Of a stretch of DNA of 64,000 nucleotides, positions 2 to 54,911 are shown in pieces. Location: positions 1,616 to 65,615 of the forward strand of contig JANZYW010000001.1 in assembly GCA_026413325.1 (NCBI GenBank). The letters are read 5' to 3'. A program made the translations under genes and the position numbers. Positions within the stretch are counted from its first letter, which is position 1; every line of letters starts with the position of its first letter. This stretch comes from Bacteroidia bacterium (lineage in GTDB: Bacteria > Bacteroidota > Bacteroidia > SpSt-205). A model generated the notes under the pieces. That model had not been told where the DNA came from. It saw nothing but the letters and a program-made list of their open reading frames with translations, and ran no database searches.

Positions 2-2023
2 CTGAGTTGGGTAGCATACGAGATGGAAGGACCTGTGATTTGGCGATGGGAACCCTCTGAACGAAAATACTATCGGCTGTCTCCTGGACTGCGCGCTATA
101 CAGAGCATTTCCTGGCAAGACGAAAAGTCTCTCCTTCTCTCGGCTCTAAGTGACGAAGGGAAAGTAGCCGCCTACACGCTTACCTTCCCACAAGGAATTC
201 TACGCAAAATAGGTGAACTCGAAGGGGATATTCTCACCCCTCAGTTCCTTCATGGTGAGATATGGGCCTCTTGGCAGCCGGACACCAGTCAGACCCGTTC
301 TCTATCTGTCCTTTGGGAGCCCCCTCAACCAGTAGTTTATCGAGGTGGGAAGTGGGAACCCCTCTCTTTTTCTGCTTATTATGCGATAGGAGGAGGGTGG
401 ATAGAAGGGGACTCCGTCTGCATCTCGCTTTCAGATGCGACAGGGTACGGATGGCCGTGGATATTTCAGCGGGATACTTCCTTCCCCAGCGCTTGGGGGA
501 TTCCAGGGCTTCATCGATGGATAGGCCAAACGCAGGATAAAGCGTACTTCCTGTACTACCGAGGGGGGCGTCTTCGACTGGGCTCCGTCGCATTGGCATT
601 TCTCCAACAGCCAGGGGCTGTTTTTCCTTCTCTTTTCGCCGCTGAGGTGATCCAGTACCGATTACAGCGGAAAGCCTCTCATCAAGGAATGTACCGCATA
701 AAAGTTCCTTCTATCCCCTCTAAACGGGATAGTGTCCCAACCGATACGCCTCGTACTCAGCGCCAGCCCTTTTATCTATTTGATGAGGAGGTTTCTCGAC
801 CTATCCGTCGTCGTCGACCACGCCCCTCTTCCGAGTCGTTATCTGATCGACCTTCTTCATTTTCCCTGCCCGCCATACAGCCTCAGGGAGCCATCCCTTA
901 CCACTGGCTTCTGTGGGACATCCAGATGGAACCTATTCTGCACCCCCTCATGCGATTAGGATGGTCTATTCAAGCTACAGCTCGAGATATGCACGCAGAT
1001 CATGAATGGTATTTTCTGTGGACGCCTTATGTGGACCTTCGCAGCTCGGAACTAAGCCTTCGATATACTCGGTACCGGAATAGATGGCAGCCCACAGCAG
1101 AGCTCACGAAACAAAGTCACTTTTTTCCTAATCGCAGATATGGCCGCACCCTCCGGAACAATACCTGGTATGGAAAAGCCGGGATTCGATATGTCTTTTC
1201 CCAGCAGTTGTATGCAGAACTCGCTATGCAGGGCCTACAAGCCGATCGATATGACATGCAGGGTACAGATGACCGAGACCTATCGGCGTCAGCACACTGG
1301 CTCGGAGGGAGCTTTCAGCTGCGATATGCAAACCTCCTCTACAGAGAAAGGCTTCCCTGGATAGGCTGGAAAGCTCACCTTCGAGTAGAAGGATATCGAG
1401 CGGGTGCTACATGGGGATTCCCTCTCGTTTTTTTCCAAGCAGAACGATTCCAACCTGTAGGCAGGCTCTTTGTTCTTCACGTACGGGGGATCAGTGCGGG
1501 AGGAGGCAATAGGGGAAGGTATTTCTTCTTGGGTGGGATACCAGACTGGATTAACTACGATTTTCAGAATCGCTCTCAAGTACCTACCTTGGGGGAGACA
1601 GGGGGCTATTTCTTGAATCAGTACATTTCTTTTCCAGGATTTCCCTACCAAGCCCGCCGAGGGAAGAATCTGCTTTTAGGGTCCATCACCGCTCGGATTC
1701 CTCTTCTTGCTTGGCGAAAAGATACGGTTCTGCCCACTCGGCTGCTCTATGGCTTCGAATGGCAGGTTGGCTACTTCGTGGGAACAACCTGGACGACGGG
1801 AAACCCTTTTTCTCAAAAGAATCCCATCGATGCGGAATATATCTTCCGACCTCCCTTGGTTATCTCCGTACAGACCCTCAAAAGTCCTTTCCTTATGAGT
1901 ATAGGTACCGGCATCCGATTTTATATCATGCGGCTACCAATCGGTCTGGAGACTTACTGGCCCGTAGAAGAAGGACGTATCGGCTCTGCTCGCCTGCTGG
2001 TCAGCTTCAGAAAAGACTTGTAG
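2..2023 (+). CDS. Omp85/BamA-family outer-membrane beta-barrel protein, 5'-truncated at the window edge (the reading frame is open back to base 2).
   Basis: The C-terminal third has Gly/aromatic-rich alternating beta-strand motifs typical of the Omp85/D15 surface-antigen barrel (GGGNRGRYFFLGG, GTGIRFYIMRLPIGLETYWPV). The large N-terminal part has no motif I recognise. No in-frame stop occurs before position 23. Confidence 0.45.
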   Translation: MSWVAYEMEGPVIWRWEPSERKYYRLSPGLRAIQSISWQDEKSLLLSALSDEGKVAAYTLTFPQGILRKIGELEGDILTPQFLHGEIWASWQPDTSQTRSLSVLWEPPQPVVYRGGKWEPLSFSAYYAIGGGWIEGDSVCISLSDATGYGWPWIFQRDTSFPSAWGIPGLHRWIGQTQDKAYFLYYRGGRLRLGSVALAFLQQPGAVFPSLFAAEVIQYRLQRKASHQGMYRIKVPSIPSKRDSVPTDTPRTQRQPFYLFDEEVSRPIRRRRPRPSSESLSDRPSSFSLPAIQPQGAIPYHWLLWDIQMEPILHPLMRLGWSIQATARDMHADHEWYFLWTPYVDLRSSELSLRYTRYRNRWQPTAELTKQSHFFPNRRYGRTLRNNTWYGKAGIRYVFSQQLYAELAMQGLQADRYDMQGTDDRDLSASAHWLGGSFQLRYANLLYRERLPWIGWKAHLRVEGYRAGATWGFPLVFFQAERFQPVGRLFVLHVRGISAGGGNRGRYFFLGGIPDWINYDFQNRSQVPTLGETGGYFLNQYISFPGFPYQARRGKNLLLGSITARIPLLAWRKDTVLPTRLLYGFEWQVGYFVGTTWTTGNPFSQKNPIDAEYIFRPPLVISVQTLKSPFLMSIGTGIRFYIMRLPIGLETYWPVEEGRIGSARLLVSFRKDL

Positions 2024-2092: not shown

Positions 2093-5000
2093 ATGTCTGG
2101 GACAAACCAACTTCGTGTGGTAAGCATCATCCTCTTGCTCTTACTGGGGGGAGGTGGAATCGTCTGGGGCATTTGGATCCATAGAAAATCGGAGGAGTTT
2201 TATGCGGCACGAGCCCGTCTTCGAGCCGCGGAAATGGCTCTCCTCCGATTAGAGATGGCAGTTTGGATACAGGAAGTCCGACTGCGCTCCGCTCTCTTAG
2301 AACGCATTTCTGGCCAGGCTCTACCCTCTCTTCTTCTCCGCCAATCAAACCTCAAAGAAGCTCTCAAAAATGTGGAAAGTAGCTCTCGTGCACTCGGACA
2401 TCCCCTACCCCCTTTACGTGAGCTGATAGAAAGAGTTCTTCTCTTAGAAAAACGCCACATAGGCTGGCGCAGAGCTTTAGAAAAAAGCGAACGAAAGGAA
2501 GAATATCTCCCAGTCTTCGAACAGTATTATGCCGAAGGACCTGGACTGCTTTCTGGCGTAGATGCTGAGATTCAACGATTTAGCCGACTATTACAAGAAA
2601 AGGTACAGGCCCAAGAGACTTCACACAAACAAAGTCTCCATACACTTCAGCTCATCGGTATAGGCAGCATCGGAGGCTATCTCCTCCTGTCTATCCTTCT
2701 CGTGCTACTCATAGGCAGGAAGGAAAAACATCTCTTGAGAGAAATAGGAAATGCTGCTGGAAAAGGAGAACCGCTCCCTCTCCAACCGGGACCTCTGTAC
2801 CCACTCATACAAGCTTACAATCAACTCCTCCATCGGTGGAACTCTCTCCTGGCTGTAACCGAAGCACTCGCTGAAAAAAGAAGCAACATCGCCTGGTCAG
2901 AGGTTCGAACCATTCTCGGTCCTCCTGCTTCTTATTTGGAACACCTCGCCCAGGAAAATACCCGACAAGAAGAGCTCTTACAGCAGCATGTGGAGGAGAA
3001 ACGTAAGTTACACCAGCAGCTCCAGGCGATGGAGAAGCTGTTCAGCGAGCAGATAGAAGCACTTCGTCTGGAAATAGGAGCCCTTCAAAATCTCATACCT
3101 CTCGCTGAAACAAACCCAGAGGGAGAGATCCTCTCCAAGAATGACCTCTTCGTAAAAATCCCCCACGCTCAAAACTGGAAGAATATCCGAGATATCAGTG
3201 GAGAGCTCCTTTCTCTGATACAATCCACCAAACCCAGCCAGGGAGTGTTACACACTCCGAATGGGTCTTTTCTCTATTTTTACCTTCCCTATCGAAAGGG
3301 GCGGGAGGAGAAAGGCCTTTTCTCCCTCATCTCGATCGGAGAACTAACCCAGAAGGTACACCAGCTGGAGAAAGCATTGGGAGCTGCCCAGCACCAGCTT
3401 GCGGAAACCGAGGCGACCCTCACTCGGCTCCGTCAGCAGTACAGTGGTCTGGGGGCTCAATACACCCAAGAAGTAGAACGGCTTCTCCGCCAGCGACAGA
3501 GTCTCCAAACACTTCTCAAGATTCCTGCCCTCCAGAAAGGAGATGTTATCGAGGGATTGGCAGCTATCTGCGAAGTCGCAGCTACTTTGGACGCCGATGC
3601 CCGCTACAGTTTCTGGGTATTTGGAGAAAACCAGGACACCTTACACTGCCTCGAAGCATACGACCCTACCCTACTCACCCACTCTAATAGCGTAGACCTT
3701 CCCTCTGAAGCGGCCCGCTGGGTGCGCGAACGCTTAGACCCTGCCACCCCTGGCCCACATGTACCAGAGCCCTCCGCCCTCCAAGCGTATTTAGCTGAGC
3801 GGCAAAGCCAGTCGCTTTGGATGTTTCCCCTTTATCTTGATGACGAAATAGCAGGGGCATTTTTCGTCGAGCGGCTTTCTCCTTTGCCCCTCTCAGATAC
3901 AGAGTACCCTGCCCTCCTGGGCAGGATCGCCTCTCTCCTTCTCCAACAAGGGCATCGCAAGCTAATAGAACAAGAACTGCTCTCCTACCTCGAACAAGCA
4001 CAAGCGCTGGAAGAAGAGCTGAGACAGAACATAGAAGAGCTCGAAGCCTCTGCGGAAGAAATGCGCCGAACGCAAGCAGAGCTTCGAGGGCAAATTACCG
4101 CCATCAATGCAGCCGCGCTCGTCGCAGAAATGAATCCGGAAGGACGCCTTATTTACGTCAATGAGGCTTTCCTACGTTTATTTGGTCACGCAGCAGAGGA
4201 ACTGATAGGAGCCCCCTATGCCAAGCTTCGCCGGCCAGAGGAAGCTTCTATAGTGGAGAAACTCTTCGAGCGACTCCGAGCTGGGGAGACCTGGCAAGAG
4301 GTCGTCTCCTATCTCAACCGCTACAATGAAGAGATATGGCTTCAGCAAACCATCACTCCCGTCCGACAGTCCGACGGAGACATCTACAAGTTCATTCTCG
4401 TAGCCTTCGATATAACCCTCCAGAAACAACAAGAGACAGAAATACAAAGCGCCCTTCTCCTGGCTCGAGAACAAGAGCAACTCCTCAGAGAAAACACAGA
4501 AGAGCTAAAACGAAGCAACGAAAACTATCGGGTATCTCAGCTTCAGCTCTCTGCTCAGCTTGAAGCCCTCAATAATGCAGCCTGGCTTTTCGAAACAGAC
4601 GGAGAAGGAAAGCTTACCTATGCAAGTCAGAGCCTCTTAGAAGCCCTGGGATATACCCACGAAAAGCTTCTGCACGCTCATTACGGCGCCCTCTTCTCGG
4701 AAAGACAACCCATTGCTGTCTTACAAGGTCACTGGCGCAGCATGCAGTCTGGACAAATCTGGAAATCTGAAGTAGAACTGCGCGGGAGCGTAGGACAAAC
4801 ATACTGGGCTATTATGTCCAGTACGCCCATCATCGATAAGTCACGCACTGAACGAAAGGGGCATATTCTCAAGACAGTGAATGTCCTTTTTGACATTACT
4901 GAGCAGAAAGAACAGGAATTCCGTCTTAAGGAACAGCAGAATGCCCTTTCGACCTTGGCAGCGCACCCCGCTCTCCGAGAGGGAGATACAGAGAAAGCCT

Positions 5001-6289
5001 TTCAAGTCATCGCCGAGGTGGCCTTACAAACCCTCAAAGCCTATCGCGTTAGCCTCTGGCTCTATCAAGAGCCAGACCAGGCTCGGTGTGTCGCAGTAGC
5101 AGAAAAAGAAGCACACTCTCATACAGTAGGCACCGTAACAAACCGTTCTCTCTATCCCCTTTACTTTCAAAGCCTGGAACGAGAACAGGTCATCGCCGTG
5201 GTAGACGCTCTCTCTGACCTCCGCACTCGAGAGCTGGCCCTCCCTCTCTTCAAACCCAACAATGTAACAAGCGTACTGGATGGCATCATTCGCGTGGGAG
5301 CTAAAACCGCAGGCTTGATCAGTGTGGAACATCGATATACCCGCAGGGAATGGCGGCTGGACGAAGTCAACTTCGTTCGAGCCCTCACCTCCTCCGCCGC
5401 TTCTGTAATCGAAGAGGAGCAGCAGGCTTACGCCCGTCGTCTTCAAGAAGCGTATAAACAGTTAGAGCAGCAAAAGCAGGAGCTGGAAGAGGCTATGCGA
5501 GACATTCGAGAGAGCATCCGATACGCCAAGCGAATGCAGAAAAACATTCTACCCACGGATAGCCTTCTGGAAAAATACCTCGGAAAAGACAACTACTTCA
5601 TTATCTGGCGCCCGAGAGATCGAAACGGGGTGGGAGGAGACTTTTACTGGTTTAGTGATGCAGGAGAAGCCTACTTCATCGTGGTAGCAGATGGCACCGG
5701 GCATGGCGTTCCCGGGGCTTTCATGACCCTTATTGGAAGCATCCTTCTTGATCAGATTATCAATAAAAGTCGTATCTACTCTCCAGCTCAGATACTCCAT
5801 GACCTCCATATCGGCGTACGTCAAGTGCTGCGACAGGACATCGAAGGCGATGAAACTCCTTCTCGCGATGGAATGGATATCGCTCTGGTGTGTTATTATC
5901 CCAAAACCTATCGACTCCTCTATGCAGGAGCGAACCTACCCCTCTACTACACCCAAGGTACAGAGCTCAAGGAAATAAAACCTGACAAAAAGGCCATCGG
6001 CGGCGAGCAGCTGGAAGAAGAACGCTTCTTCACAGAACACGAAGTGCAGTTAGAGCCAGGAGATACATTCTTTCTCTTTACCGATGGCGTGGTAGATCAA
6101 TCAGGCGGCCCGGCAGGGAAACGCTTCGGAACCAAGCAGTTGAAGGAATTCATTCTCGAGACCTTCCATGAGCCCTCCATGCCCCGTAGGAGAGCCTTAT
6201 TCAACATTCGATGGAAAGAATGGAAAGACTACGCAGGGGAGGGAGAACAAATAGATGATGTAACGATGTGGGGAATCCGGCTGTGGTAA
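2093..6289 (+). CDS. Membrane-anchored multi-sensor protein-serine phosphatase. Domain order is an N-terminal TM helix, long coiled coils, two or three PAS domains, a GAF domain, then a C-terminal SpoIIE/RsbU-type PP2C phosphatase.
   Basis: N-terminal hydrophobic helix (IILLLLLGGGGIVWGIWI). Heptad-rich Leu/Gln/Glu segments. PAS-like blocks (EGRLIYVNEAFLRLFGHAAEELIG; GKLTYASQSLLEALGYTHEKLL). The C-terminus carries PP2C/SpoIIE signatures (GGDFYWF, VVADGTGHGVPGAFMT, DGMDIALV, FLFTDGVVDQ). Confidence 0.8.
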   Translation: MSGTNQLRVVSIILLLLLGGGGIVWGIWIHRKSEEFYAARARLRAAEMALLRLEMAVWIQEVRLRSALLERISGQALPSLLLRQSNLKEALKNVESSSRALGHPLPPLRELIERVLLLEKRHIGWRRALEKSERKEEYLPVFEQYYAEGPGLLSGVDAEIQRFSRLLQEKVQAQETSHKQSLHTLQLIGIGSIGGYLLLSILLVLLIGRKEKHLLREIGNAAGKGEPLPLQPGPLYPLIQAYNQLLHRWNSLLAVTEALAEKRSNIAWSEVRTILGPPASYLEHLAQENTRQEELLQQHVEEKRKLHQQLQAMEKLFSEQIEALRLEIGALQNLIPLAETNPEGEILSKNDLFVKIPHAQNWKNIRDISGELLSLIQSTKPSQGVLHTPNGSFLYFYLPYRKGREEKGLFSLISIGELTQKVHQLEKALGAAQHQLAETEATLTRLRQQYSGLGAQYTQEVERLLRQRQSLQTLLKIPALQKGDVIEGLAAICEVAATLDADARYSFWVFGENQDTLHCLEAYDPTLLTHSNSVDLPSEAARWVRERLDPATPGPHVPEPSALQAYLAERQSQSLWMFPLYLDDEIAGAFFVERLSPLPLSDTEYPALLGRIASLLLQQGHRKLIEQELLSYLEQAQALEEELRQNIEELEASAEEMRRTQAELRGQITAINAAALVAEMNPEGRLIYVNEAFLRLFGHAAEELIGAPYAKLRRPEEASIVEKLFERLRAGETWQEVVSYLNRYNEEIWLQQTITPVRQSDGDIYKFILVAFDITLQKQQETEIQSALLLAREQEQLLRENTEELKRSNENYRVSQLQLSAQLEALNNAAWLFETDGEGKLTYASQSLLEALGYTHEKLLHAHYGALFSERQPIAVLQGHWRSMQSGQIWKSEVELRGSVGQTYWAIMSSTPIIDKSRTERKGHILKTVNVLFDITEQKEQEFRLKEQQNALSTLAAHPALREGDTEKAFQVIAEVALQTLKAYRVSLWLYQEPDQARCVAVAEKEAHSHTVGTVTNRSLYPLYFQSLEREQVIAVVDALSDLRTRELALPLFKPNNVTSVLDGIIRVGAKTAGLISVEHRYTRREWRLDEVNFVRALTSSAASVIEEEQQAYARRLQEAYKQLEQQKQELEEAMRDIRESIRYAKRMQKNILPTDSLLEKYLGKDNYFIIWRPRDRNGVGGDFYWFSDAGEAYFIVVADGTGHGVPGAFMTLIGSILLDQIINKSRIYSPAQILHDLHIGVRQVLRQDIEGDETPSRDGMDIALVCYYPKTYRLLYAGANLPLYYTQGTELKEIKPDKKAIGGEQLEEERFFTEHEVQLEPGDTFFLFTDGVVDQSGGPAGKRFGTKQLKEFILETFHEPSMPRRRALFNIRWKEWKDYAGEGEQIDDVTMWGIRLW

Positions 6290-6804
6290 TGCACTGGATA
6301 GGCATAGACATCGGCTCACAAGCCGTAGGCTGGGCGGTAGTCCAGCTAATGCCAGCCGGCCGCTTCTTTCTCCACTCTTGTGAAGCCATCGACCTGGGCA
6401 AGGCTCCTCTGGAAAATCGGCTGTCCACCCTTCATACCTGGCTCCTCGACCACCTCAAAAACTGGCCTACCGTCACCTCCGTTGCCATAGAAGAACCCTT
6501 TGTAGGAAAAAGCATTCGAAGTGCCCTCACCTTAGGTACTGTAAAAGGACTCGTGTGGAGCCTTCTCCTCTCTCAAGGCAAGCCCCCCCCTCATCGATTG
6601 GCAGCCGTCCAGGTAAAGAAAGCCATCACAGGCCGCCCTCACGCCGATAAAACACAAGTCGCCGCTATGCTCCAGCACTACCTTGTTTCAGCTGAGCTTC
6701 CCCAAAATCCCCACGCCACAGATGCCATCGCAATCGCTATCGCAGCCGCCCTTGCTCAGAACTCTCCTATCAGTCGGAGATTAAAAAGTCGCGCCGAGAG
6801 ATAG
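6289..6804 (+). CDS. ruvC: Holliday-junction resolvase RuvC.
   Basis: MHWIGIDIGSQAVGWAVV matches the RuvC N-terminus including the catalytic Asp. The acidic residues in VAIEEPF and HATDAIAIAIAAAL are conserved. The ORF track starts at GTG 6268, but the ATG at 6289 fits the family N-terminus. It overlaps the upstream stop codon by 1 nt. Confidence 0.85.
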   Translation: MHWIGIDIGSQAVGWAVVQLMPAGRFFLHSCEAIDLGKAPLENRLSTLHTWLLDHLKNWPTVTSVAIEEPFVGKSIRSALTLGTVKGLVWSLLLSQGKPPPHRLAAVQVKKAITGRPHADKTQVAAMLQHYLVSAELPQNPHATDAIAIAIAAALAQNSPISRRLKSRAER

Positions 6805-9218
6805 TTCGGAACTGCCCATCGAACTCCATACACATCCGCAATCCACTGATAACTTACCACATTATACCGCTGAAATAGATTGAAAACATCAACCCCCACC
6901 CACAAGGACCGACAATATCGCCACTCTATAGGAAAATACCGACTCAACCCCAAGTCAACTCGATTGTAAAAGGGCATTTGGAAAACAGTTCGCGCTTCTA
7001 ATCGACGAGGCACACCAAAAGGAGCCCCTGTCGCAAATACGAACTGCAAGGTGAGCTTATACAAGGGATTAGTAGGAAGTTCATCTTGAAGGTAAAAAGC
7101 GAAACTGAGACGCTGATCGCTCGGACGACGTACCCACCTTCCGCCAGGAAGCTGCTCCTGCGTCGATAACAAGCCCAAAGCAAACCAGGAGTCTACCCCC
7201 GCTAAAAATTCTCCATTCAGCCGCATATCTATACCATAGGCATAGCCTCGAGCCAGATTCGCTCCGTAATACCGAAGCCGCACATTTTCTATCTCATACG
7301 GAATAAGATCCCAGAGTGCCTTGTAATAGAGTTCAAAGAAGTAACGAAAGGGTCTGTTCCATAAAGAAAAACGATGGTCTACTCCACCCACCACCTGGAC
7401 ACTCTGCTGAGCTCGAAGGGTGGGAATCAACCGATAGTCAATCGCCCGCAGCTCCCGGTAAAAAGGCGGCTGCCCATAATGGCCAATCCCCACTCTGTAT
7501 TGGGTCCGCTCTGTTGGCTGATACAGCACTTGGAACCGAGGACTGATAAGCCACTGCCGATTCACAGCACTAAAATGAAAACGGACACCCCCCTCCACCC
7601 GCCACTGTCCCCATCGAAACCCTTGCTGAAAGAACCCCAATACTCTACGATTAGAAAGCCCCTGGTCCCAAAAATAGCGCTCATCCATCTTTACATAATC
7701 CGCAGAATCTAACGCACTCCATTCATAGACTCTGTCGGTAAAAGACTCTCCCTGGACACGTACCCCCCAAGAAAAACGGTGGCGAAATGTGCTGTCCCAA
7801 AACCAGTCCCCCCGCTGCTCCGCATACACAGCGTGGATGTCAAGGTAGTTGCGAATGCGGCGGATCTGACTTCCAGCCCCCCGAAGCACCGTGATTTCAT
7901 TATAGAGCGAACTGCCTAAACTGGTCTGTACCTCCCCCAGTAGGTAGGCACCCTCCACATCCACGACCTCATCCTCGAGACTACCAAAGTAGCTCATGAG
8001 GTGGGTTAGCCGAAAGTATGGAGAAGGACGCCACGTTACAGCGAATGCCTGCTGCCCCGTCCGATAGCGAAGCTCCTCCGCTCCCATGAAATACAGCTGT
8101 ACTCGAAAGGCGGCATTAATCAGCCCGAAGGTAGCCTCCCCCGTCTGAGGAAAAAGGCGGTACCGATTAATCAGCCCTGTAGCCAGTGCCTCTCCCCGCC
8201 ATCGCTCTCTACCGACGCTATCTTTACGACTCCAACTCAAGTACGCCTGCCCATCATAGAATATAGGCCGGTACTGCCCACGGACAGGTAAACTCTGCAG
8301 AAGGTATCCCATCGCAAAACGGCGTACTCCCACTGTATAATGCACGGCCCCTACCTTCCCACATGTCGCAAACCCTTGTGTAAGCAGCCCAGCTTCCACT
8401 GTAGTCTCGGGACGATCCCTCCGCTTATAGGTAACCTGCAATACAGAAGAAAGCTTATCCCCAAACCGAGCTTCAAACCCCCCCGTACTGAAATATACCT
8501 CTTCTACCAAAAGCGGATTGGTAAACCCAAGACCCTCTTGTTGCCCACTCCGAGCTGAAAAAGGACGATATATCTCGATTTCACCCGCATACACCAGATT
8601 CTCATCAAAGTTTCCACCTCGTACTCTGTACTGAGAAGAAAGCTCACTGGAAGAGAGTGCCCCCATCAAAACCAGTCGACTCTCTATATCAGGCTTGATA
8701 GACGGCATGAAGCGAAGAGCCTCCGTCCGGATCGGAATGGGCTGAAGAAAAGGAGCTCGGGGCAAGTCTGTCGGAGGAGGACGACTGTCTACTATCTGCA
8801 CAGAATCCGTTCGCACTTCTCGCTCAGGCAGCGCCAGAACAAGCGGTGTCGTCGATGCATTTTGAATCCACACTTCTGTTTCGACGGGAGCGGCGCTGAG
8901 ATGGGAGACTCGGATTCGATGCCGCCCCGGCACGAGAGATAAACGCAATTGGCCCAAAGAATCGGTGGTATACTTCTTCCCAGAAAACACAAACATTACT
9001 TGCGCATAGGGAAGAGGGCGATTTTGCGCTGACACCACTCGCAAGCTCAGCACCCCTTCTTGAGCCAAAATACCCCCTCCATAGATACAGAAGAAAATGC
9101 ATCTCCTCCAACTCCCTCCTATACCTCTTTCCCTTACTCCTTTTACCCGCTTTCCAATGAGTCTTTTGATAGGAGAACCATCCATCCCTGTCCCCTCTCC
9201 ATCAGACGCTGTTTTCAC
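6756..9218 (-). CDS. TonB-dependent-receptor-like outer-membrane beta-barrel protein with an N-terminal carboxypeptidase-regulatory-like (CarbopepD_reg) domain.
   Basis: The N-terminal segment (LSLRVVSAQNRPLPYAQVMFVFSGKKYTTDSLGQLRL) resembles the CarboxypepD_reg domain common in Bacteroidetes SusC/TBDR proteins. The body is long and rich in Gly, Tyr, Arg and Phe. The C-terminus ends in an aromatic residue (…LIGEF). Start codon uncertain. Confidence 0.5.
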   Translation of the reverse strand: MKTASDGEGTGMDGSPIKRLIGKRVKGVRERGIGGSWRRCIFFCIYGGGILAQEGVLSLRVVSAQNRPLPYAQVMFVFSGKKYTTDSLGQLRLSLVPGRHRIRVSHLSAAPVETEVWIQNASTTPLVLALPEREVRTDSVQIVDSRPPPTDLPRAPFLQPIPIRTEALRFMPSIKPDIESRLVLMGALSSSELSSQYRVRGGNFDENLVYAGEIEIYRPFSARSGQQEGLGFTNPLLVEEVYFSTGGFEARFGDKLSSVLQVTYKRRDRPETTVEAGLLTQGFATCGKVGAVHYTVGVRRFAMGYLLQSLPVRGQYRPIFYDGQAYLSWSRKDSVGRERWRGEALATGLINRYRLFPQTGEATFGLINAAFRVQLYFMGAEELRYRTGQQAFAVTWRPSPYFRLTHLMSYFGSLEDEVVDVEGAYLLGEVQTSLGSSLYNEITVLRGAGSQIRRIRNYLDIHAVYAEQRGDWFWDSTFRHRFSWGVRVQGESFTDRVYEWSALDSADYVKMDERYFWDQGLSNRRVLGFFQQGFRWGQWRVEGGVRFHFSAVNRQWLISPRFQVLYQPTERTQYRVGIGHYGQPPFYRELRAIDYRLIPTLRAQQSVQVVGGVDHRFSLWNRPFRYFFELYYKALWDLIPYEIENVRLRYYGANLARGYAYGIDMRLNGEFLAGVDSWFALGLLSTQEQLPGGRWVRRPSDQRLSFAFYLQDELPTNPLYKLTLQFVFATGAPFGVPRRLEARTVFQMPFYNRVDLGLSRYFPIEWRYCRSLWVGVDVFNLFQRYNVVSYQWIADVYGVRWAVPNYLSARLFNLRLIGEF

Positions 9219-50281: not shown

Positions 50282-51178
50282 TCAGAAGGTCCAAAGATGG
50301 TGCTCGAATTCTATCATCTGCTGCCTTCGAAGCTCCGCTTCGTTCAAAGTACGGGATTCCTCACCCGAGACCACGGTGACATACCCATAAAAGCGCCTCA
50401 ACTCGATTATTTCGCGTAAAGACCTATCTTCTGCGTCATTTGCACGATTGCGCCACTGACTATCGTCCATCACATCCATTACATCTTTGTATCGGAAGCA
50501 GACAGCGTCTTCATCTGCGAGAGCTCCCTTCGGATCGACTTGAACAAGGCAAATGTATTGCATATCATAGTACATGTCAGATCGGTTTTTATCAAAAATC
50601 CGATCCTCGATGATACGAAGCTTAGTACGGTAGTATTTGAGATAAGGGAAGCCCTGATCAGAAGAAGGAGTAGTAGCAGCGTCGGTGGTGGGGGCAGCAT
50701 CTATACCACCTCCCAGATCATCTCCTGCAAACTCATCTCCACCAAAATCATCTCCCCCAAAATCCTCTTCTCCACCGAATCCCCCTTCCTCTCCTTCCGT
50801 TCCACCAGTCTCGCCACCTGCCTCGATGCGACGAGAACGGGAATCAAACTCTTCGAAAGAAACTTGCCGGCTGAGATTCTTGGGACTATAACCTACGAAC
50901 TTTCCATCCTTGAACCCTTTTAGGAGGGCGACGATTATCCCCTCTCGATTGGCATAAGGAGATTTATCTGTAATGGGGTCCGTACTATAGTTGGTGTACA
51001 AACGGTACCCTTCTTGCCCAGACTCGATGGAGGCATTAAACTTCTCCCGAAGGTCTATGGTAAGAACGACTTTCTTTCGCCAAAAATGATCCTCTACCCT
51101 CGGAGGAAATTGTGCATAGGCGAGAGAGGTCAGTAAAAGTCCGAACAGTGTATACGTGCGATTCATTTGCATACTCAT
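50282..51178 (-). CDS. gldN: Gliding-motility/T9SS protein GldN, with a low-complexity insertion.
   Basis: Last gene of the gldK-L-M-N order. Signal peptide. About 300 aa. Called mainly by synteny. Confidence 0.65.
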   Translation of the reverse strand: MSMQMNRTYTLFGLLLTSLAYAQFPPRVEDHFWRKKVVLTIDLREKFNASIESGQEGYRLYTNYSTDPITDKSPYANREGIIVALLKGFKDGKFVGYSPKNLSRQVSFEEFDSRSRRIEAGGETGGTEGEEGGFGGEEDFGGDDFGGDEFAGDDLGGGIDAAPTTDAATTPSSDQGFPYLKYYRTKLRIIEDRIFDKNRSDMYYDMQYICLVQVDPKGALADEDAVCFRYKDVMDVMDDSQWRNRANDAEDRSLREIIELRRFYGYVTVVSGEESRTLNEAELRRQQMIEFEHHLWTF

Positions 51179-52884
51179 TTTCCGATTGTGATAGCAAAAG
51201 TTAGCTCGGTTATCGAGAAGTTCTCCTTGACCTGCTTATTCTGGAAGTTGACCCGGAACACATCGGAGAACTGTACGTAGAGAACATTTCCTGGTTGTAA
51301 TCCTCTCGAGTAGTCAGTTAGGTCGACAGCCACTGCTGGAGAGGTGGCGACCCGGCTGGAAGGAAGTGTACCGATCGTGGTGGCACCAGCCAAGCCCTTG
51401 ACTACCTTGATCTCCGGCTTTTCGATCACATAGCGAGCGTCTTCAGGTAGGGACTTCGCAAAATCATTATCGGGAACCACCTGGATCTTAACAGTTGCAG
51501 TGCGGGGCACAGGAGAAACGCCATTATACAGCTCGTTATTGACGAACACACGAAGGAAGGGACGGGGAGGAGGCACAACCTTATAATCCAGTGTACCGAG
51601 GTCTACTAACTGACCGGCTGTATTCGTTTGGACTGTCAGTCGACAGGTTTTCGCACCCCCTCTCGGAACAATCCGAAACTTTTTCTTACTCTGTTTGGAC
51701 TGGAGAACCTGGGCATTATCCGCTGTTACGCGAGGATCATACAACTCCCCTAAAGCAGGCACATCGATATTTAGGTCATTGCCACACTCAGCATAGAGGA
51801 GCTGGACAGCCGCAGAAGTTACAACAATCTCGGGCTTGACCACCTCGAAGGTTTTCCGAAGTCGAAGCTCTTGAAATGAGCCGTCCGCTTTGGGGACACG
51901 AGCAGTGATACTGTATTCCTGCTTCCCTTTTCGCTGGTTAGCAGGTATTGCACGAGCAGAAGCTGGGATGGTGAACACAGCAGAGTATCCTCCTCCTTCC
52001 AGCTTCATGTTTCCTGTCCCAGAGAAGGTGGGCTTGGCTTCAGATGAAGTCGCTGCTACGAAAACTCGAGTTTCGAAGCGCATACCCGCCACTACGATTT
52101 CAGAGCGTGGAGCATCTACCAGCACCAGGGAGTCTATCTTGAAGGTTACCTGACCAAGCTTAGACTTGAGCAAGTTGAGTATCTCCGTCTCAATGACATA
52201 CACATCATTGATGTATTTGTATAGAACGGCAAGATTCGCAACAGCGGGAGTCATATGGAAGGTAAAATACTCCCAGGTTTTCTCTTTGGATTCTTTCTCC
52301 TTGACATAAGGATTGTCCTTGGGATCCACTACGAGGCGCTGGAATCCCTTACCCGCGTTAGGAAGCCGCCCATTGGAGTGATAGGCATAAAAACGATTGG
52401 CCCAATCTACAAAGCTGTCCAAAAGCCGATGCATTTCAAGGGCCTTTCCTTCTCCACGACCCTGATTGGCAACATCATTTTTCCCCATCCAGTAGCGGTA
52501 ATTATTTTCCCGCTCGTCCAATCTTTTGAGGCGACCTGTCTCAGGGTCCTTCCCTGCGATACGCTCCTCATAAAGGGCCATGGCATACTCCCGAAGAATC
52601 CCTGTAGTACTATCGGCCTTCGCTCGAACACGATCCACTTCTGCAAGCAGAGGCTCATTTTTACGGCTACCCTGTTCAATTTCTTTTTGGATCGCAGATT
52701 TTATGCCCTGGGCGAGGTCCTGATTGTTTTTCTGAAACTGCTCGGCTGTATTTTGGAGAGAGTCTGCGAGATTTTGAAAAGCCTGAAGCACCTCAGCACT
52801 CACGTTCAGCGCAAGAAGCGCTGTGAGCACGAGGTACATCAGGTTAATCATTTTTTGACGGGGAGTAAGCTTGCCCGACGCCAT
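51175..52884 (-). CDS. gldM: Gliding-motility/T9SS protein GldM.
   Basis: N-terminus MASGKLTPRQKMINLMYLVLTALLALNVS is the GldM signature TM region. 569 aa periplasmic body. Confidence 0.85.
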   Translation of the reverse strand: MASGKLTPRQKMINLMYLVLTALLALNVSAEVLQAFQNLADSLQNTAEQFQKNNQDLAQGIKSAIQKEIEQGSRKNEPLLAEVDRVRAKADSTTGILREYAMALYEERIAGKDPETGRLKRLDERENNYRYWMGKNDVANQGRGEGKALEMHRLLDSFVDWANRFYAYHSNGRLPNAGKGFQRLVVDPKDNPYVKEKESKEKTWEYFTFHMTPAVANLAVLYKYINDVYVIETEILNLLKSKLGQVTFKIDSLVLVDAPRSEIVVAGMRFETRVFVAATSSEAKPTFSGTGNMKLEGGGYSAVFTIPASARAIPANQRKGKQEYSITARVPKADGSFQELRLRKTFEVVKPEIVVTSAAVQLLYAECGNDLNIDVPALGELYDPRVTADNAQVLQSKQSKKKFRIVPRGGAKTCRLTVQTNTAGQLVDLGTLDYKVVPPPRPFLRVFVNNELYNGVSPVPRTATVKIQVVPDNDFAKSLPEDARYVIEKPEIKVVKGLAGATTIGTLPSSRVATSPAVAVDLTDYSRGLQPGNVLYVQFSDVFRVNFQNKQVKENFSITELTFAITIGK

Positions 52885-52890
52885 ACGGAT

Positions 52891-53742
52891 CTATCGTTGA
52901 AATGCAGAGGTAATACCAGAAAGCATGCCTCCATAGACAGCATTGAGGCCACGAAGATTGGTATTGAGACCCACCAATTCTTGGCGAAGCTGCTCGGCAT
53001 CTTGGGCGGTAGCTTCGATATTGGATAGAACACGTCCCAACCCTCCATAGAAACGGCCGATAGCGGCTATATGCTTCTGCATCTCTTGTAGCTCATTCTC
53101 ATAGACGGAGTTGAGCTGGGAGATTGTGTGGGACAGTGTTTTTATTTGAGCCTGATAGCTTTGGATATCCCCGAAAGAAGCAGCGATCTTGGACATTGCG
53201 TCTGCCGTGACCGCATAGCTTTGGGAGAGCTGTTCCACACGGGAAGAAGCCTCTCGGACCTTCTCAGCAAACTCGTTCGTTGCCACGGCAGCATCCGTGA
53301 TATCGGAGAGGTTCGTCACACTCACACGAAGGCCTTCGATAGAAGAGGCTAACTGCTCCAATAAATCAGGGGTAAGACTGCTTTCTTGGAGAGACTTGAT
53401 ACCGGGGCCCAACCCAGGCATGAAACCTCCTGGACCTCCCATGCCCAAGCCTACGTCAATAGGCTCTTCTTCCTCCTCTTCTTTGAGTTGAGGAAAAACT
53501 TTAGACCAGTCCCAATGCCGCTCGTCCTCAGGCAGGGGCTCCAAGCCAGAGACGAAAAATACCGCAGCTTCCGTTCCGAGTCCCACGATGAGCATCTCAT
53601 TTGCACCAGGGAGGTGGAGAATCTTAAACAAAGCCCCGATAATCACTACAGAAGCTCCCCATGCATAGAGATACTTCATCGCAATACGATACCCCCGAGA
53701 GCGGAGGAGAGCGTCAAAAGCACCTTGATTCTTTGCAGCCAT
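52891..53742 (-). CDS. gldL: Gliding-motility/T9SS protein GldL.
   Basis: Two N-terminal TM helices (YAWGASVVIIGALFKILHLPGANEMLIVGLGTEAAVFFVSG) then a cytoplasmic coiled-coil region, located upstream of gldM. Confidence 0.8.
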   Translation of the reverse strand: MAAKNQGAFDALLRSRGYRIAMKYLYAWGASVVIIGALFKILHLPGANEMLIVGLGTEAAVFFVSGLEPLPEDERHWDWSKVFPQLKEEEEEEPIDVGLGMGGPGGFMPGLGPGIKSLQESSLTPDLLEQLASSIEGLRVSVTNLSDITDAAVATNEFAEKVREASSRVEQLSQSYAVTADAMSKIAASFGDIQSYQAQIKTLSHTISQLNSVYENELQEMQKHIAAIGRFYGGLGRVLSNIEATAQDAEQLRQELVGLNTNLRGLNAVYGGMLSGITSAFQR

Positions 53743-53774
53743 AGTTCGTAGTATTTAGTAAGGTTCGTTTCCTT

Positions 53775-54854
53775 TTAGCGCATAGCTCCGGAGCGACCAA
53801 TCACCGAGAGTACACAGCGAAAGCCGATGTGGGATTTGGTCGTATCGGCATACTCATAATCGCGAGTACCCACCGATAGGAAGTATGCCACATCATTCCA
53901 GCCACCACCTCGCACCACACGTCGGCGATTCTGCTTACGAGGGTCCCGATAAACAGGGTTGAGGTCGTGGGCATAGGCAATGGGGCCAGTTTCTTCGAAG
54001 TCATCTTCACACCATTCTGCTACATTCCCCACAGTATGGTAGAGACCATAATCGTTGGGGAAGTATGACTTTACCGGAGCAGTATATTCGAAGCCATCAG
54101 CAATATAATCGCCTCTTCCGGGCTTGAAGTTAGCCAATGGACACCCCTTGGAGTTCCGCGTGTAAGGGCCCAGCCAGGGGTATATCTTATGCTCATATCC
54201 ACCACGGGCTGCATATTCCCACTCTGCCTCGGTGGGCAGACGGAAGCGGGGGACGGGCGGAAGCTCCCGCGTAGCCCGATAGCTATTATAGAACATCGTA
54301 CGCCAGTAGCAGAAAGCTTGAGCTGCATACCAGTTCACCCCTACGAGCGGGTAATCATCAAAGGCAGGATGCCAGTAATAGTTCTCTACTAATGGCTCGT
54401 TGTAGACAAAGTTTCCAAAATCTCGATTCCACACCTGCGTGTCCGGATATACAAGTCGCAAGTACTCCTCTTGATTGTTTATCTTCTTGCCGTAGTAACG
54501 CTCCATAAAGGAAAAGACACTGTCAGCGAAGGCATTCTCAGAGCCAGCTACTACTTCATCGACAAATTGCCTGTATTCATTGTTAGATATTTCTGTGTCA
54601 TCGATATGAAAAGAACTCAATGTAATCTGACGAATGCGAGCATTCTGGGAGTAGTTCACATCCTGCTCATTATTGCCCATATGGAAGGTCCCTGCCGGGA
54701 TGGTAACCATACCATACGGAAGAGGATTGTCCCATTTCGGACGGTTTTTTACACCTGTCAGCTCACCTCGAGCTCCAGTACCACCCCCGCCGCAACCAGA
54801 AAGGGCGAAGGCACCGACCGCAATACTGAAGAATAGCTGTTTGCCTATACGCAT
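53775..54854 (-). CDS. gldK: Gliding-motility/T9SS lipoprotein GldK (FGE-sulfatase/SUMF1-like fold).
   Basis: Lipobox FALSGCGGGG. Formylglycine-generating-enzyme-like domain (RGGGWND…, GFRCV). First gene of the gldKLMN block. The ORF is open to 54893. Confidence 0.8.
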   Translation of the reverse strand: MRIGKQLFFSIAVGAFALSGCGGGGTGARGELTGVKNRPKWDNPLPYGMVTIPAGTFHMGNNEQDVNYSQNARIRQITLSSFHIDDTEISNNEYRQFVDEVVAGSENAFADSVFSFMERYYGKKINNQEEYLRLVYPDTQVWNRDFGNFVYNEPLVENYYWHPAFDDYPLVGVNWYAAQAFCYWRTMFYNSYRATRELPPVPRFRLPTEAEWEYAARGGYEHKIYPWLGPYTRNSKGCPLANFKPGRGDYIADGFEYTAPVKSYFPNDYGLYHTVGNVAEWCEDDFEETGPIAYAHDLNPVYRDPRKQNRRRVVRGGGWNDVAYFLSVGTRDYEYADTTKSHIGFRCVLSVIGRSGAMR

Positions 54855-54911
54855 AGCTTCTGATGATTGCGGCAAATATACGGCTCTTCTCATATCTGCA
54901 AACGAATTTGG

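What the first reader, a model, noticed from the sequence alone, without database searches (positions are those of the whole stretch)
2093..6289. 1398-aa membrane-anchored coiled-coil/PAS/GAF sensor fused to a SpoIIE/RsbU PP2C phosphatase, with no partner-switching genes nearby
This is an unusually large one-polypeptide signalling protein. It has a single N-terminal TM helix, about 900 aa of coiled coil interleaved with PAS and GAF sensor domains, and a C-terminal PP2C phosphatase with all metal-binding Asp motifs intact. RsbU/SpoIIE phosphatases normally act on STAS-domain anti-sigma-factor antagonists, but no STAS, anti-sigma or sigma gene is visible nearby. The nearest neighbours are an Omp85-like gene and ruvC, whose ATG overlaps this gene's stop codon by 1 nt. 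Its substrate is therefore not suggested by context. The length of the coiled-coil region hints at a structural or scaffolding role as well as sensing.
Basis: partly seen in the sequence, partly recalled or inferred. Interest (0 to 1): 0.5.

Follow-up and report, generated by a model that had tools for sequence, protein, structure and literature searches.

The report
Membrane multi-sensor SiaA-like protein phosphatase
This gene encodes a large but conventional membrane-bound signalling enzyme, with many sensor domains feeding one protein phosphatase, and its likely targets (SiaC-type switch proteins) are encoded elsewhere in the genome, as they are in its close relatives.

Summary
The ORF 2093..6289 (+), 1398 aa, is real. 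PAS, GAF and SpoIIE/PP2C domains are confirmed, every metal-binding residue is conserved, and the ruvC ATG overlaps the stop codon by 1 nt.

Three details in the finding are wrong or overstated.
- There are two transmembrane helices (aa 9-27 and 187-205) flanking a ~160-aa periplasmic helical bundle, not one helix.
- Long linker helices total ~324 aa (23%), not ~900 aa.
- The "Omp85-like" neighbour has no family hit and is cut by the window edge.

By both sequence and fold, the closest solved structure to the phosphatase domain is Pseudomonas SiaA, whose substrate is SiaC (DUF1987), not a classical STAS protein.

No partner gene lies in the 64-kb window. Among the 80 closest PP2C loci in reference genomes, 17 carry a SiaB kinase gene and 16 a SiaC gene, usually directly downstream. 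Only 2-3 carry STAS.

Genomes with orthologues of this protein carry a conserved cluster: CheR-CheB-PEBP-PAS/GAF-PP2C-SiaB-SiaC-SiaB-SiaC, followed 3 kb on by a STAS gene. In two of them it starts ~10 kb from the orthologue, which in this window would be beyond the left edge.

Verdict: a new member of a known kind, an orphan sensor phosphatase probably feeding a SiaB/SiaC partner switch. Interest is low to moderate.

The parts
2093..6289 (+). Whole gene: 1398-aa membrane multi-domain sensor PP2C phosphatase (= NCBI MCX7605639.1, annotated 'PAS domain S-box protein', Bacteroidia MAG)
2117..2173 (+). TM helix 1 (aa 9-27)
   Evidence: Kyte-Doolittle 19-aa window score 2.42; helical in the AF2 model
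2174..2650 (+). Periplasmic all-helical sensor domain (aa 28-186). It has no family hit and is clade-specific.
   Evidence: AF2 helices 2-73, 87-99, 106-131 and 135-205, pLDDT mostly 84-93. No Pfam hit at E<=5. Only 3 full-length relatives of aa 1-488 among 1.84 billion representatives.
2651..2707 (+). TM helix 2 (aa 187-205)
   Evidence: Kyte-Doolittle score 2.33; hydrophobic block kept in orthologues
2714..2878 (+). HAMP-like helix-loop-helix just after TM2 (aa 208-262). The assignment rests on position and secondary structure only.
   Evidence: AF2 helices 212-223 and 236-260. Pfam HAMP not detected.
2924..3094 (+). Linker helix L1 (aa 278-334)
3101..3334 (+). Cryptic PAS-like alpha/beta module (aa 337-414)
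   Evidence: AF2 strand/helix pattern. With the following GAF it matches phytochrome PAS-GAF bidomains in Foldseek. No Pfam hit.
3335..3520 (+). Linker helix L2 (aa 415-476)
3545..3901 (+). GAF-1 (aa 485-603)
   Evidence: Pfam GAF_2, E 5.9e-4, below the gathering score; AF2 fold and Foldseek
3902..4111 (+). Linker helix L3 (aa 604-673), 91% identical among orthologues
4115..4411 (+). PAS-A (aa 675-773). The position of the LOV flavin-binding cysteine motif reads YAKLRR, so it is not a LOV photoreceptor.
   Evidence: Pfam PAS_9 95 bits; AF2; sequence
4415..4573 (+). Linker helix L4 (aa 775-827)
4580..4894 (+). PAS-B (aa 830-934)
   Evidence: second PAS stretch in Pfam and NCBIfam; AF2
4898..4963 (+). 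Linker helix L5 (aa 936-957)
4988..5356 (+). GAF-2 (aa 966-1088)
   Evidence: Pfam GAF 41.9 bits; AF2
5357..5536 (+). Linker helix L6 (aa 1089-1148) leading into the phosphatase domain
   Evidence: covered by the SiaA model and 6K4E alignments
5594..6280 (+). PP2C/SpoIIE phosphatase domain (aa 1168-1396), SiaA-like. Metal ligands D1183, D1200, G1203, D1331, G1332, D1388; auxiliary D1262, D1335.
6289..6804 (+). ruvC. Its ATG overlaps the sensor's TAA by 1 nt. Tight adjacency is kept in four related genomes.
2..2023 (+). 3' two thirds of a ~1000-aa gene of unknown family that runs off the window's left edge. It lies 69 nt upstream of the sensor and is probably co-transcribed.

Best explanation
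The gene encodes an inner-membrane, probably dimeric, multi-input sensor serine/threonine phosphatase of the PPM/PP2C (SpoIIE-type) family, with a SiaA-like catalytic domain.

Shown:
- Two TM helices flank a ~160-aa periplasmic helical domain.
- The cytoplasmic chain runs HAMP-like hairpin, helix, PAS-like, helix, GAF, helix, PAS, helix, PAS, GAF, helix, PP2C.
- All metal-binding residues are intact.

Inferred from established work on this enzyme class:
- Signals from the periplasmic domain and the cytoplasmic PAS/GAF modules travel along a continuous coiled-coil spine to the alpha1/alpha2 switch of the phosphatase.
- That switch sets metal binding and activity.

Inferred from homology and from relatives' genomes:
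- The substrate is the phospho-threonine of a SiaC-type (DUF1987) partner-switch protein, which a SiaB-type kinase re-phosphorylates.
- Both are encoded elsewhere in the genome, in a cluster headed by a second PAS/GAF-PP2C phosphatase.
- This protein is therefore an 'orphan' extra input into a SiaB/SiaC switch, much as RsbU and RsbP both act on RsbV in Bacillus subtilis.
For: Architecture:
- Pfam and NCBIfam domains.
- Two TM segments.
- AF2 models with pLDDT 78.5 and 70.1.
- Foldseek matches to PAS-GAF bidomains and tandem PAS proteins.

Active enzyme:
- The SiaA ligands D457, D474, G477, D600, G601 and D653 (PMC7647112) align to D1183, D1200, G1203, D1331, G1332 and D1388, all invariant.

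SiaA-like domain:
- 6K4E is the only PDB sequence hit (E 2e-43).
- BLASTP identity is 35.7% over 283 aa.
- 6K4E is the top Foldseek hit, with TM-score 0.83 normalised to the target.
- The NCBIfam SiaA model scores 214 bits over its PP2C half.

Partner type:
- Of the 80 best GTDB loci, 17 have a SiaB-family kinase (NF038262, 168-180 bits against a cutoff of 85) and 16 have SiaC. In 13 of these loci SiaB and SiaC lie just downstream of the PP2C gene on the same strand. Only 2-3 loci have STAS.
- In Ekhidna, the PP2C gene is followed directly by SiaC.

This clade:
- L089, L090 and L091 show CheR-CheB-PEBP-PP2C (907-912 aa)-DUF6272/SiaB-SiaC-SiaB-SiaC. STAS follows in L091 and L090.
- In L089 and L091 the cluster is ~10 kb from the sensor orthologue.
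- In L090 the cluster is on the same 244,472-bp contig as the sensor orthologue P0006.
- Protein accession adjacency indicates the same gene order in at least 8 MAGs.
- Both SiaC copies keep the YFNTSS phospho-site motif (SiaC T68 peptide LLYLNTSSIK).
- The paralogue P0166 (MCX7606571.1) is 932 accession numbers from this protein (MCX7605639.1), so it is very probably in the same MAG.

Linker mechanism:
- PMC12143880.
- Linkers L3-L5 are 87-93% identical among orthologues, against 68% for the PAS domains.
Against: - No SiaB, SiaC or STAS gene is in the 64-kb window, nor within +-10 kb of the orthologues in L001, L088 and L002, nor within ~8 kb in L008.
- About 75% of the closest PP2C homologues are also orphans.
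- In a crude NJ tree, this PP2C domain groups with small orphan PAS-PP2C proteins (L003, L005). SiaBC-linked domains are scattered, so the phylogeny does not assign a partner.
- The PP2C domain is only 36% identical to that of the cluster's own phosphatase.
- The SiaB/SiaC genes of the window's own MAG could not be seen directly.
- Dimerisation and the linker mechanism are taken from the literature, not tested here.
Confidence: 0.6

Rival explanations
1. This is a classical RsbU/RsbP-type phosphatase. Its substrate is a phosphorylated STAS-domain anti-anti-sigma factor, and its output is release of an alternative sigma factor.
For: - SpoIIE-family domain.
- A 182-aa STAS-domain protein sits in the relatives' cluster (L091 17731-18279; NCBI name 'STAS domain-containing protein').
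- 2-3 of the 80 homologue loci carry a STAS ORF.
- SiaC itself is structurally STAS-related (PMC8457831).
Against: - No RsbW/SpoIIAB-type kinase or sigma factor was found in the window or in the relatives' clusters.
- phmmer against the PDB finds SiaA but not RsbU, SpoIIE or Rv1364c.
- SiaB/SiaC partners are about 6 times more frequent than STAS near the closest homologues.
Confidence: 0.2
2. The long helical regions give the protein a mainly structural or scaffolding role, with sensing and phosphatase activity secondary.
For: Six long helices totalling 324 aa.
Against: - Each helix is 22-70 aa and connects two signalling modules. This is the standard layout of dimeric sensor kinases, cyclases and PPM phosphatases (PMC12143880).
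- There is no extended uninterrupted coiled coil.
- The catalytic site is strictly conserved.
- The linker sequences are more conserved than the PAS domains, as expected for signal transmission.
Confidence: 0.05
3. The phosphatase is functionally tied to RuvC and recombinational repair. The conserved, translationally coupled sensor-ruvC pair would then be a unit in which the phosphatase regulates, or is co-regulated with, Holliday-junction resolution.
For: - Stop/start overlap or a <=4-nt gap between the sensor gene and ruvC in the window, L001, L008 and L089.
- No + strand terminator-like site, and no Bacteroidota -7 promoter motif, between the genes.
Against: - The adjacency is lost in orthologue P0010 (L088, 67% identity), where a TonB-dependent receptor follows, and in the distant P0015 (L002).
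- No link between PP2C partner switches and RuvC is known (own knowledge).
- Shared transcription of unrelated genes is common.
Confidence: 0.05

Closest known systems
SiaA of Pseudomonas aeruginosa (PA0172; SiaABCD system; PDB 6K4E)
   Same: - The PP2C domain is the closest solved relative by sequence (E 2e-43, 35.7% identity) and by fold (TM-score 0.83).
- All metal ligands are identical.
- Both are membrane-anchored, with a helical linker into the phosphatase.
- Relatives of this protein's clade encode SiaB- and SiaC-family proteins that keep the phospho-Thr motif.
   Different: - SiaA is 663 aa, with only TM and HAMP upstream of PP2C. This protein is 1398 aa, with a periplasmic bundle and five PAS/GAF modules.
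- It scores 214 bits against the 700-bit equivalog cutoff.
- It is not in a siaABCD operon.
- No SiaD-type diguanylate cyclase was seen in the relatives' clusters.
RsbP / RsbU of Bacillus subtilis, RsbZ of C. difficile and OsaC of Streptomyces (PAS/GAF-linked PPM phosphatases of partner-switching pathways)
   Same: - Sensor domains joined to a SpoIIE-type PPM domain through a coiled-coil linker.
- Several phosphatases can converge on one switch protein.
- The phosphatase gene can be unlinked from its substrate.
   Different: - Those enzymes act on STAS (RsbV) and control sigma-B, and they are soluble.
- Here the catalytic domain is SiaA-like, the protein is membrane-integral, and no sigma or anti-sigma genes were found.
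The 907-912-aa PAS/GAF-PP2C paralogue of the same clade (P0160-P0178), heading the PP2C-SiaB-SiaC-SiaB-SiaC cluster
   Same: - Same genomes, an N-terminal hydrophobic anchor, PAS/GAF modules and a SiaA-like PP2C domain.
- In two genomes it lies ~7 kb from the orthologue of this protein.
   Different: - Only 36% identity in the PP2C domain.
- Shorter, with a different N-terminal region.
- Directly followed by its kinase and phosphoprotein genes and preceded by CheR-CheB-PEBP.

Membership tests
PPM/PP2C phosphatase, SpoIIE type (Pfam PF07228) | Profile match above the curated threshold | tested here: met
   80 bits against a cutoff of 25, aa 1192-1396
PPM/PP2C phosphatase, SpoIIE type (Pfam PF07228) | Conserved Asp/Gly residues that bind metals M1 and M2 (and M3) | tested here: met
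   D1183, D1200, G1203, D1331, G1332 and D1388, plus D1262 and D1335, align to the SiaA ligands and are invariant in 11 sequences
PPM/PP2C phosphatase, SpoIIE type (Pfam PF07228) | PP2C beta-sandwich fold | tested here: met
   The AF2 model's top Foldseek hit is 6K4E, target-normalised TM-score 0.83, rmsd 4.7 A. Local pLDDT is mixed (40-90).
PPM/PP2C phosphatase, SpoIIE type (Pfam PF07228) | Mn2+/Mg2+-dependent phospho-Ser/Thr phosphatase activity | not testable with these tools
   Needs an enzyme assay
SiaA (NCBIfam NF038263 equivalog) | Full-length score at or above the equivalog cutoff (700 bits) | tested here: not met
   213.8 bits, covering only model positions 361-656
SiaA (NCBIfam NF038263 equivalog) | Gene in a siaA-siaB-siaC(-siaD) operon | tested here: not met
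   No SiaB or SiaC in the window or beside the orthologues in L001, L008 and L088. Such genes occur elsewhere in relatives' genomes.
SiaA (NCBIfam NF038263 equivalog) | Dephosphorylates SiaC phospho-Thr | not testable with these tools
   Inferred only
RsbU/RsbP-type sigma-factor partner-switch phosphatase | STAS antagonist, anti-sigma kinase and sigma factor genes in the neighbourhood or regulon | tested here: not met
   None in the 64 kb. A STAS gene, but no RsbW-type kinase or sigma factor, is in the relatives' cluster.
HAMP domain (PF00672) | Profile match after the last TM helix | tested here: not met
   No hit even at E<=5. Only a helix-loop-helix in the AF2 model.
PAS and GAF sensor domains | Profile matches above threshold | tested here: met
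   PAS_9 95 bits with two stretches; GAF 41.9 bits. GAF_2 at 489-604 is below threshold but is supported by fold.
LOV blue-light PAS | Flavin-binding Cys in the NCRFLQ motif | tested here: not met
   Weak YtvA/LOV-family hits only. The equivalent stretch reads PYAKLRR, without Cys.

The most novel reading that the evidence does not exclude
This Bacteroidia clade may run a two-channel SiaB/SiaC partner switch.
- Two divergent SiaA-like sensor phosphatases would each control one of two tandem SiaB-SiaC pairs. One is this 1398-aa periplasm-sensing orphan. The other is the 907-aa paralogue in the cluster.
- The first SiaB copy looks like a pseudokinase.
- CheR/CheB/PEBP genes would add a methylation-type adaptation layer.
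- The output would be something other than c-di-GMP, because no SiaD-type cyclase is present.

This would be a new wiring of the Sia-type switch in a phylum where it has not been studied.
Probability: 0.15. Interest if true: 0.5.

Novelty: new member of a known kind. Interest (0 to 1): 0.22.

Why it matters
Taken alone, the gene is an ordinary if large example of the modular 'sensor domains - coiled-coil - PPM phosphatase' design. Public annotation already calls it a PAS-domain protein.

The useful results are a corrected anatomy (two TM helices and a periplasmic sensor) and a concrete, testable substrate hypothesis. Its catalytic domain belongs to a large, mostly Bacteroidota subfamily related to SiaA. 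Members of that subfamily are often followed by SiaB/SiaC genes, and the clade that carries this protein has a conserved double SiaB/SiaC cluster.

Sia-type partner switches have been characterised only in Pseudomonas. Their abundance and different wiring in Bacteroidota is a modest open area.

Tried and rejected
- An exact look-up of the window protein in the contig index found nothing, so the MAG's own flanks could not be fetched.
- tblastn of an Ekhidna SiaC, and local SiaB/SiaC/STAS/RsbW searches, found nothing in the window, L001, L002, L008 or L088.
- An NJ tree of PP2C domains was meant to assign a partner by phylogeny. It was inconclusive: this domain groups with orphan PAS-PP2C proteins, and SiaBC-linked domains are scattered.
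- I considered that the E-rich linkers might be CheR/CheB methylation sites, because CheR/CheB sit in the relatives' cluster. There is a single EELEAS match at aa 648 and none in the paralogue next to CheR/CheB, so I treat it as chance.
- LOV photoreceptor rejected: no Cys.
- HAMP, and any known periplasmic sensor family, not detected by profile.
- Omp85 identity of the upstream gene: no Pfam, NCBIfam or PDB support. The only hit is a weak TolB-like one, E 0.023.
- Sigma-70 promoter and terminator scans gave counts no higher than in shuffles.
- The 90% clusters of SiaC1 and SiaB2 did not list a member with an accession next to MCX7606571.1. SiaB/SiaC in the window's own MAG therefore remains unproven.

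Full report
**Observation**

The ORF 2093..6289 on the + strand starts with ATG at the first possible start and encodes 1398 aa.

It is 100% identical to a public MAG protein, MCX7605639.1, annotated 'PAS domain S-box protein [Bacteroidia bacterium]', on a 67,044-bp contig.

About a dozen full-length orthologues (63-71% identity) exist in other Bacteroidia MAGs, several of them from hot-spring data sets such as KatS3mg025. There is one distant relative of 1453 aa at 38% identity. The window carries gldK/L/M/N and porP/sprF, which fits Bacteroidota.

**Domains**

Pfam finds the following:
- two PAS domains (aa 675-778 and ~830-955);
- a GAF domain (965-1105);
- a weaker GAF_2 (489-604);
- SpoIIE (1192-1396; 80 bits against a cutoff of 25).

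Hydropathy shows two segments, not one, with Kyte-Doolittle score >=2.3: aa 9-27 and 187-205. The second is retained in the orthologue alignment.

AlphaFold2 models were built on a 13-sequence alignment. Residues 1-660 gave pLDDT 78.5 and residues 640-1398 gave pLDDT 70.1. They give this layout:

| Region (aa) | Element |
|---|---|
| 9-27 | TM1 |
| 28-186 | all-helical periplasmic domain |
| 187-205 | TM2 |
| 208-262 | helix-loop-helix (HAMP-like in position; no HAMP profile hit) |
| 278-334 | linker helix L1 |
| 337-414 | small PAS-like alpha/beta module |
| 415-476 | linker helix L2 |
| 485-603 | GAF-1 |
| 604-673 | linker helix L3 |
| 675-773 | PAS-A |
| 775-827 | linker helix L4 |
| 830-934 | PAS-B |
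| 936-957 | linker helix L5 |
| 966-1088 | GAF-2 |
| 1089-1148 | linker helix L6 |
| 1168-1396 | PP2C |

Foldseek matches the 337-603 region to phytochrome PAS-GAF bidomains, and the C-terminal half to tandem-PAS proteins and to SiaA.

The six long linker helices total 324 aa (23%) and the five globular sensor modules ~524 aa. The finding's 'single TM helix' is therefore wrong, and '900 aa of coiled coil' is overstated.

Linkers L3-L5 are 87-93% identical among orthologues, while the PAS domains they join are 68% identical. The periplasmic domain is 46% identical. This pattern fits signal-transmitting helices and a fast-evolving external sensor.

The N-terminal 488 aa has only three full-length relatives among 1.84 billion representative proteins.

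**Catalytic domain**

phmmer against all PDB sequences finds a single hit, the SiaA PP2C domain of Pseudomonas aeruginosa (6K4E, E 2e-43). BLASTP identity is 35.7% over 283 aa. Foldseek also ranks 6K4E first, with a target-normalised TM-score of 0.83. The NCBIfam SiaA equivalog model matches only through its phosphatase half, at 214 bits against a cutoff of 700.

The SiaA paper (PMC7647112) lists the metal-coordinating residues D457, D474, G477, D600, G601 and D653, and the auxiliary residues D534 and D604.
- In the alignment the ligands correspond to D1183, D1200, G1203, D1331, G1332 and D1388.
- The auxiliary residues correspond to D1262 and D1335.
- All are invariant in the 11-sequence family alignment.

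The enzyme is therefore predicted to be active. It is SiaA-like in its catalytic domain but is not a SiaA equivalog.

**Local context**

ruvC (6289..6804; Pfam RuvC 81 bits) starts with an ATG that shares its A with the sensor's TAA.

The upstream ORF continues in frame to base 2 of the window. It corresponds to residues 339-1000 of a 1000-aa orthologue in L001, at 57% identity. It has no Pfam, NCBIfam or meaningful PDB hit, so 'Omp85-like' is unsupported.

The 69-nt gap before the sensor gene has no + strand terminator-like site. It also lacks the Bacteroidota TAnnTTTG motif, which is otherwise enriched in the window and sits before many genes (46 matches against 26.6 expected). A three-gene transcript is plausible but inferred.

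Sensor-ruvC adjacency is kept in L001, L008 and L089. It is lost in L088 and L002.

I scanned essentially all plausible ORFs of the 64 kb against Pfam. None is a STAS, HATPase_c_2, sigma, SiaB or SiaC protein. Local HMM and tblastn searches agree.

**What the closest phosphatase domains are linked to**

A search with the PP2C domain alone finds more than 1,264 proteins at E<=1e-20. Most are from Bacteroidota, and they carry many different N-terminal modules: PAS, cNMP-binding, receiver, HAMP, GAF and Y_Y_Y.

I fetched the 80 best loci from GTDB species representatives and searched their ORFs with locally built profiles.
- 17 of the 80 have a ~190-aa gene that NCBIfam identifies as a SiaB-family kinase (168-180 bits against a cutoff of 85).
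- 16 of the 80 have a SiaC/DUF1987 gene.
- In 13 of these loci the order is PP2C, SiaB, SiaC on one strand.
- Only 2-3 have a STAS ORF.
- The remaining ~75% are orphans like this gene.

In Ekhidna sp. To15 a 40%-identical PP2C gene is followed after 4 nt by SiaC. One MAG (JAYVZC01) has three paralogues, of which only one is next to SiaB/SiaC.

A crude NJ tree places this domain with small orphan PAS-PP2C proteins. It does not separate SiaBC-linked from orphan enzymes, so phylogeny alone does not assign the partner.

**Relatives of this very protein**

In GCA_025059535.1 (L089) and GCA_039630245.1 (L091) the unit [995-aa unknown]-[1393-aa orthologue]-[ruvC, seen in L089] is divergently adjacent to a cluster with this gene order:
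- TPR, Metallophos, CheR, CheB, PEBP;
- a PAS/GAF-SpoIIE protein of 907 aa;
- DUF6272 (SiaB-like), SiaC, DUF6272 (SiaB), SiaC;
- three small unknown genes, 3HCDH and a metallo-beta-lactamase;
- a STAS protein (L091).

The first SiaB-like gene starts ~9.7 kb from the sensor's start codon.

GCA_026418435.1 (L090) has the same CheR-CheB-PEBP-PP2C-SiaB-SiaC-SiaB-SiaC cluster, on the same 244,472-bp contig as the sensor orthologue P0006.

My SiaB and SiaC profiles hit all eight genes. NCBI names them 'SiaB family protein kinase', 'DUF6272 family protein' and 'DUF1987 domain-containing protein'.

Both SiaC copies carry EYFNTSSSK. This matches the phosphorylated peptide LLYLNTSSIK (T68) of Pseudomonas SiaC.

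Consecutive protein accession numbers indicate the same paralogue-SiaB-SiaC-SiaB-SiaC order in at least eight MAGs.

KatS3mg025 has the paralogue as locus tag _1467 and the sensor orthologue as _1156, so there the two are ~300 genes apart.

One paralogue, P0166 (MCX7606571.1, on a 28,465-bp contig), lies 932 accession numbers from the window's protein. As a control, a known same-genome pair differs by 84-531 across three assemblies. It is therefore very probably from the same MAG.

**Interpretation**

The protein is a membrane-integral, multi-input sensor phosphatase of a well-known modular design.

Work on RsbU, RsbP and related enzymes (PMC12143880) shows that PAS, GAF, HAMP and receiver domains control PPM phosphatase dimers through crossing coiled-coil linkers acting on the alpha1/alpha2 switch. 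The conserved linker helices here fit that mechanism. This is inferred, not tested.

The most likely substrate is a SiaC-type phosphoprotein controlled by a SiaB-type kinase encoded elsewhere, probably in the cluster headed by the 907-aa paralogue. I put this at roughly 55-60%. A STAS-type substrate is the main rival, at about 20%. A scaffolding role or a functional tie to RuvC is unlikely.

His own refutation test, a partner-switch module just outside the window, is met in two related genomes, although the module there is Sia-type.

**Novelty and score**

This is a new member of a known kind. The length and number of sensor modules are at the high end but not exceptional for bacterial signalling proteins. 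The public annotation is uninformative rather than wrong.

The one mildly interesting aspect is the conserved double SiaB/SiaC cluster with CheR/CheB/PEBP, and with no SiaD-type cyclase, in this clade. It lies outside the window. Interest 0.22.

Noticed in passing
L091:8101-18279 and L090:8114-18336 (relatives; not in the window): Conserved cluster CheR-CheB-PEBP-PAS/GAF-PP2C-SiaB-SiaC-SiaB-SiaC, then three small unknown genes, 3HCDH, a metallo-beta-lactamase and STAS. No MCP, CheA or diguanylate cyclase is visible. The first SiaB copy (DUF6272) is only ~30-34% identical to the second. It lacks the GTAGLG/GGAGLG glycine motif seen in the second copy and in other SiaB-family proteins, so it may be a pseudokinase.
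   Followed up: partly
L091:17731-18279: The STAS-domain protein of the cluster carries a ~70-aa extremely acidic C-terminal tail (E/D/W repeats).
   Followed up: no
window 2-2023 (+): The gene upstream of the sensor is the 3' part of a ~1000-aa protein with no Pfam, NCBIfam or PDB relative. It is conserved next to the sensor in L001, L089 and L091, but tblastn did not find it in L008.
   Followed up: partly
window 50282-55847 (-): Type IX secretion / gliding core genes in a row: porP/sprF (54912-55847), gldK-like FGE-sulfatase (53775-54893), gldL (52891-53742), gldM (51175-52884) and gldN (50282-51178).
   Followed up: no
whole window: The Bacteroidota -7 promoter motif TAnnTTTG occurs 46 times against 26.6 +- 4.6 expected. 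Many copies sit just upstream of start codons (e.g. 12326, 18674, 23427, 33053, 38522). None lies before the sensor gene or ruvC.
   Followed up: partly
L008:4026-8058: The sensor orthologue in MAG SKYG92 aligns as two tblastn segments in different reading frames (break near 6641-6670). This suggests a frameshift or an assembly error.
   Followed up: no
L027, L028, L036 (MAG JAYVZC01): One genome holds at least three paralogues of this PP2C subfamily, and only one of them is next to SiaB/SiaC. This fits several sensor phosphatases sharing one switch.
   Followed up: partly
window 6756-6804: The 3' end of ruvC overlaps by 49 nt the 3' end of the convergent 820-aa CarboxypepD_reg-domain gene (6756..9218, -). 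The same convergent overlap is seen in L001 and L089.
   Followed up: no
window 4034-4051 (aa 648-653): The linker helix L3 contains EELEAS, which fits the chemoreceptor methylation consensus EExxA(S/T). It is a single occurrence and is absent from the paralogue that sits beside CheR/CheB, so it is probably chance.
   Followed up: yes
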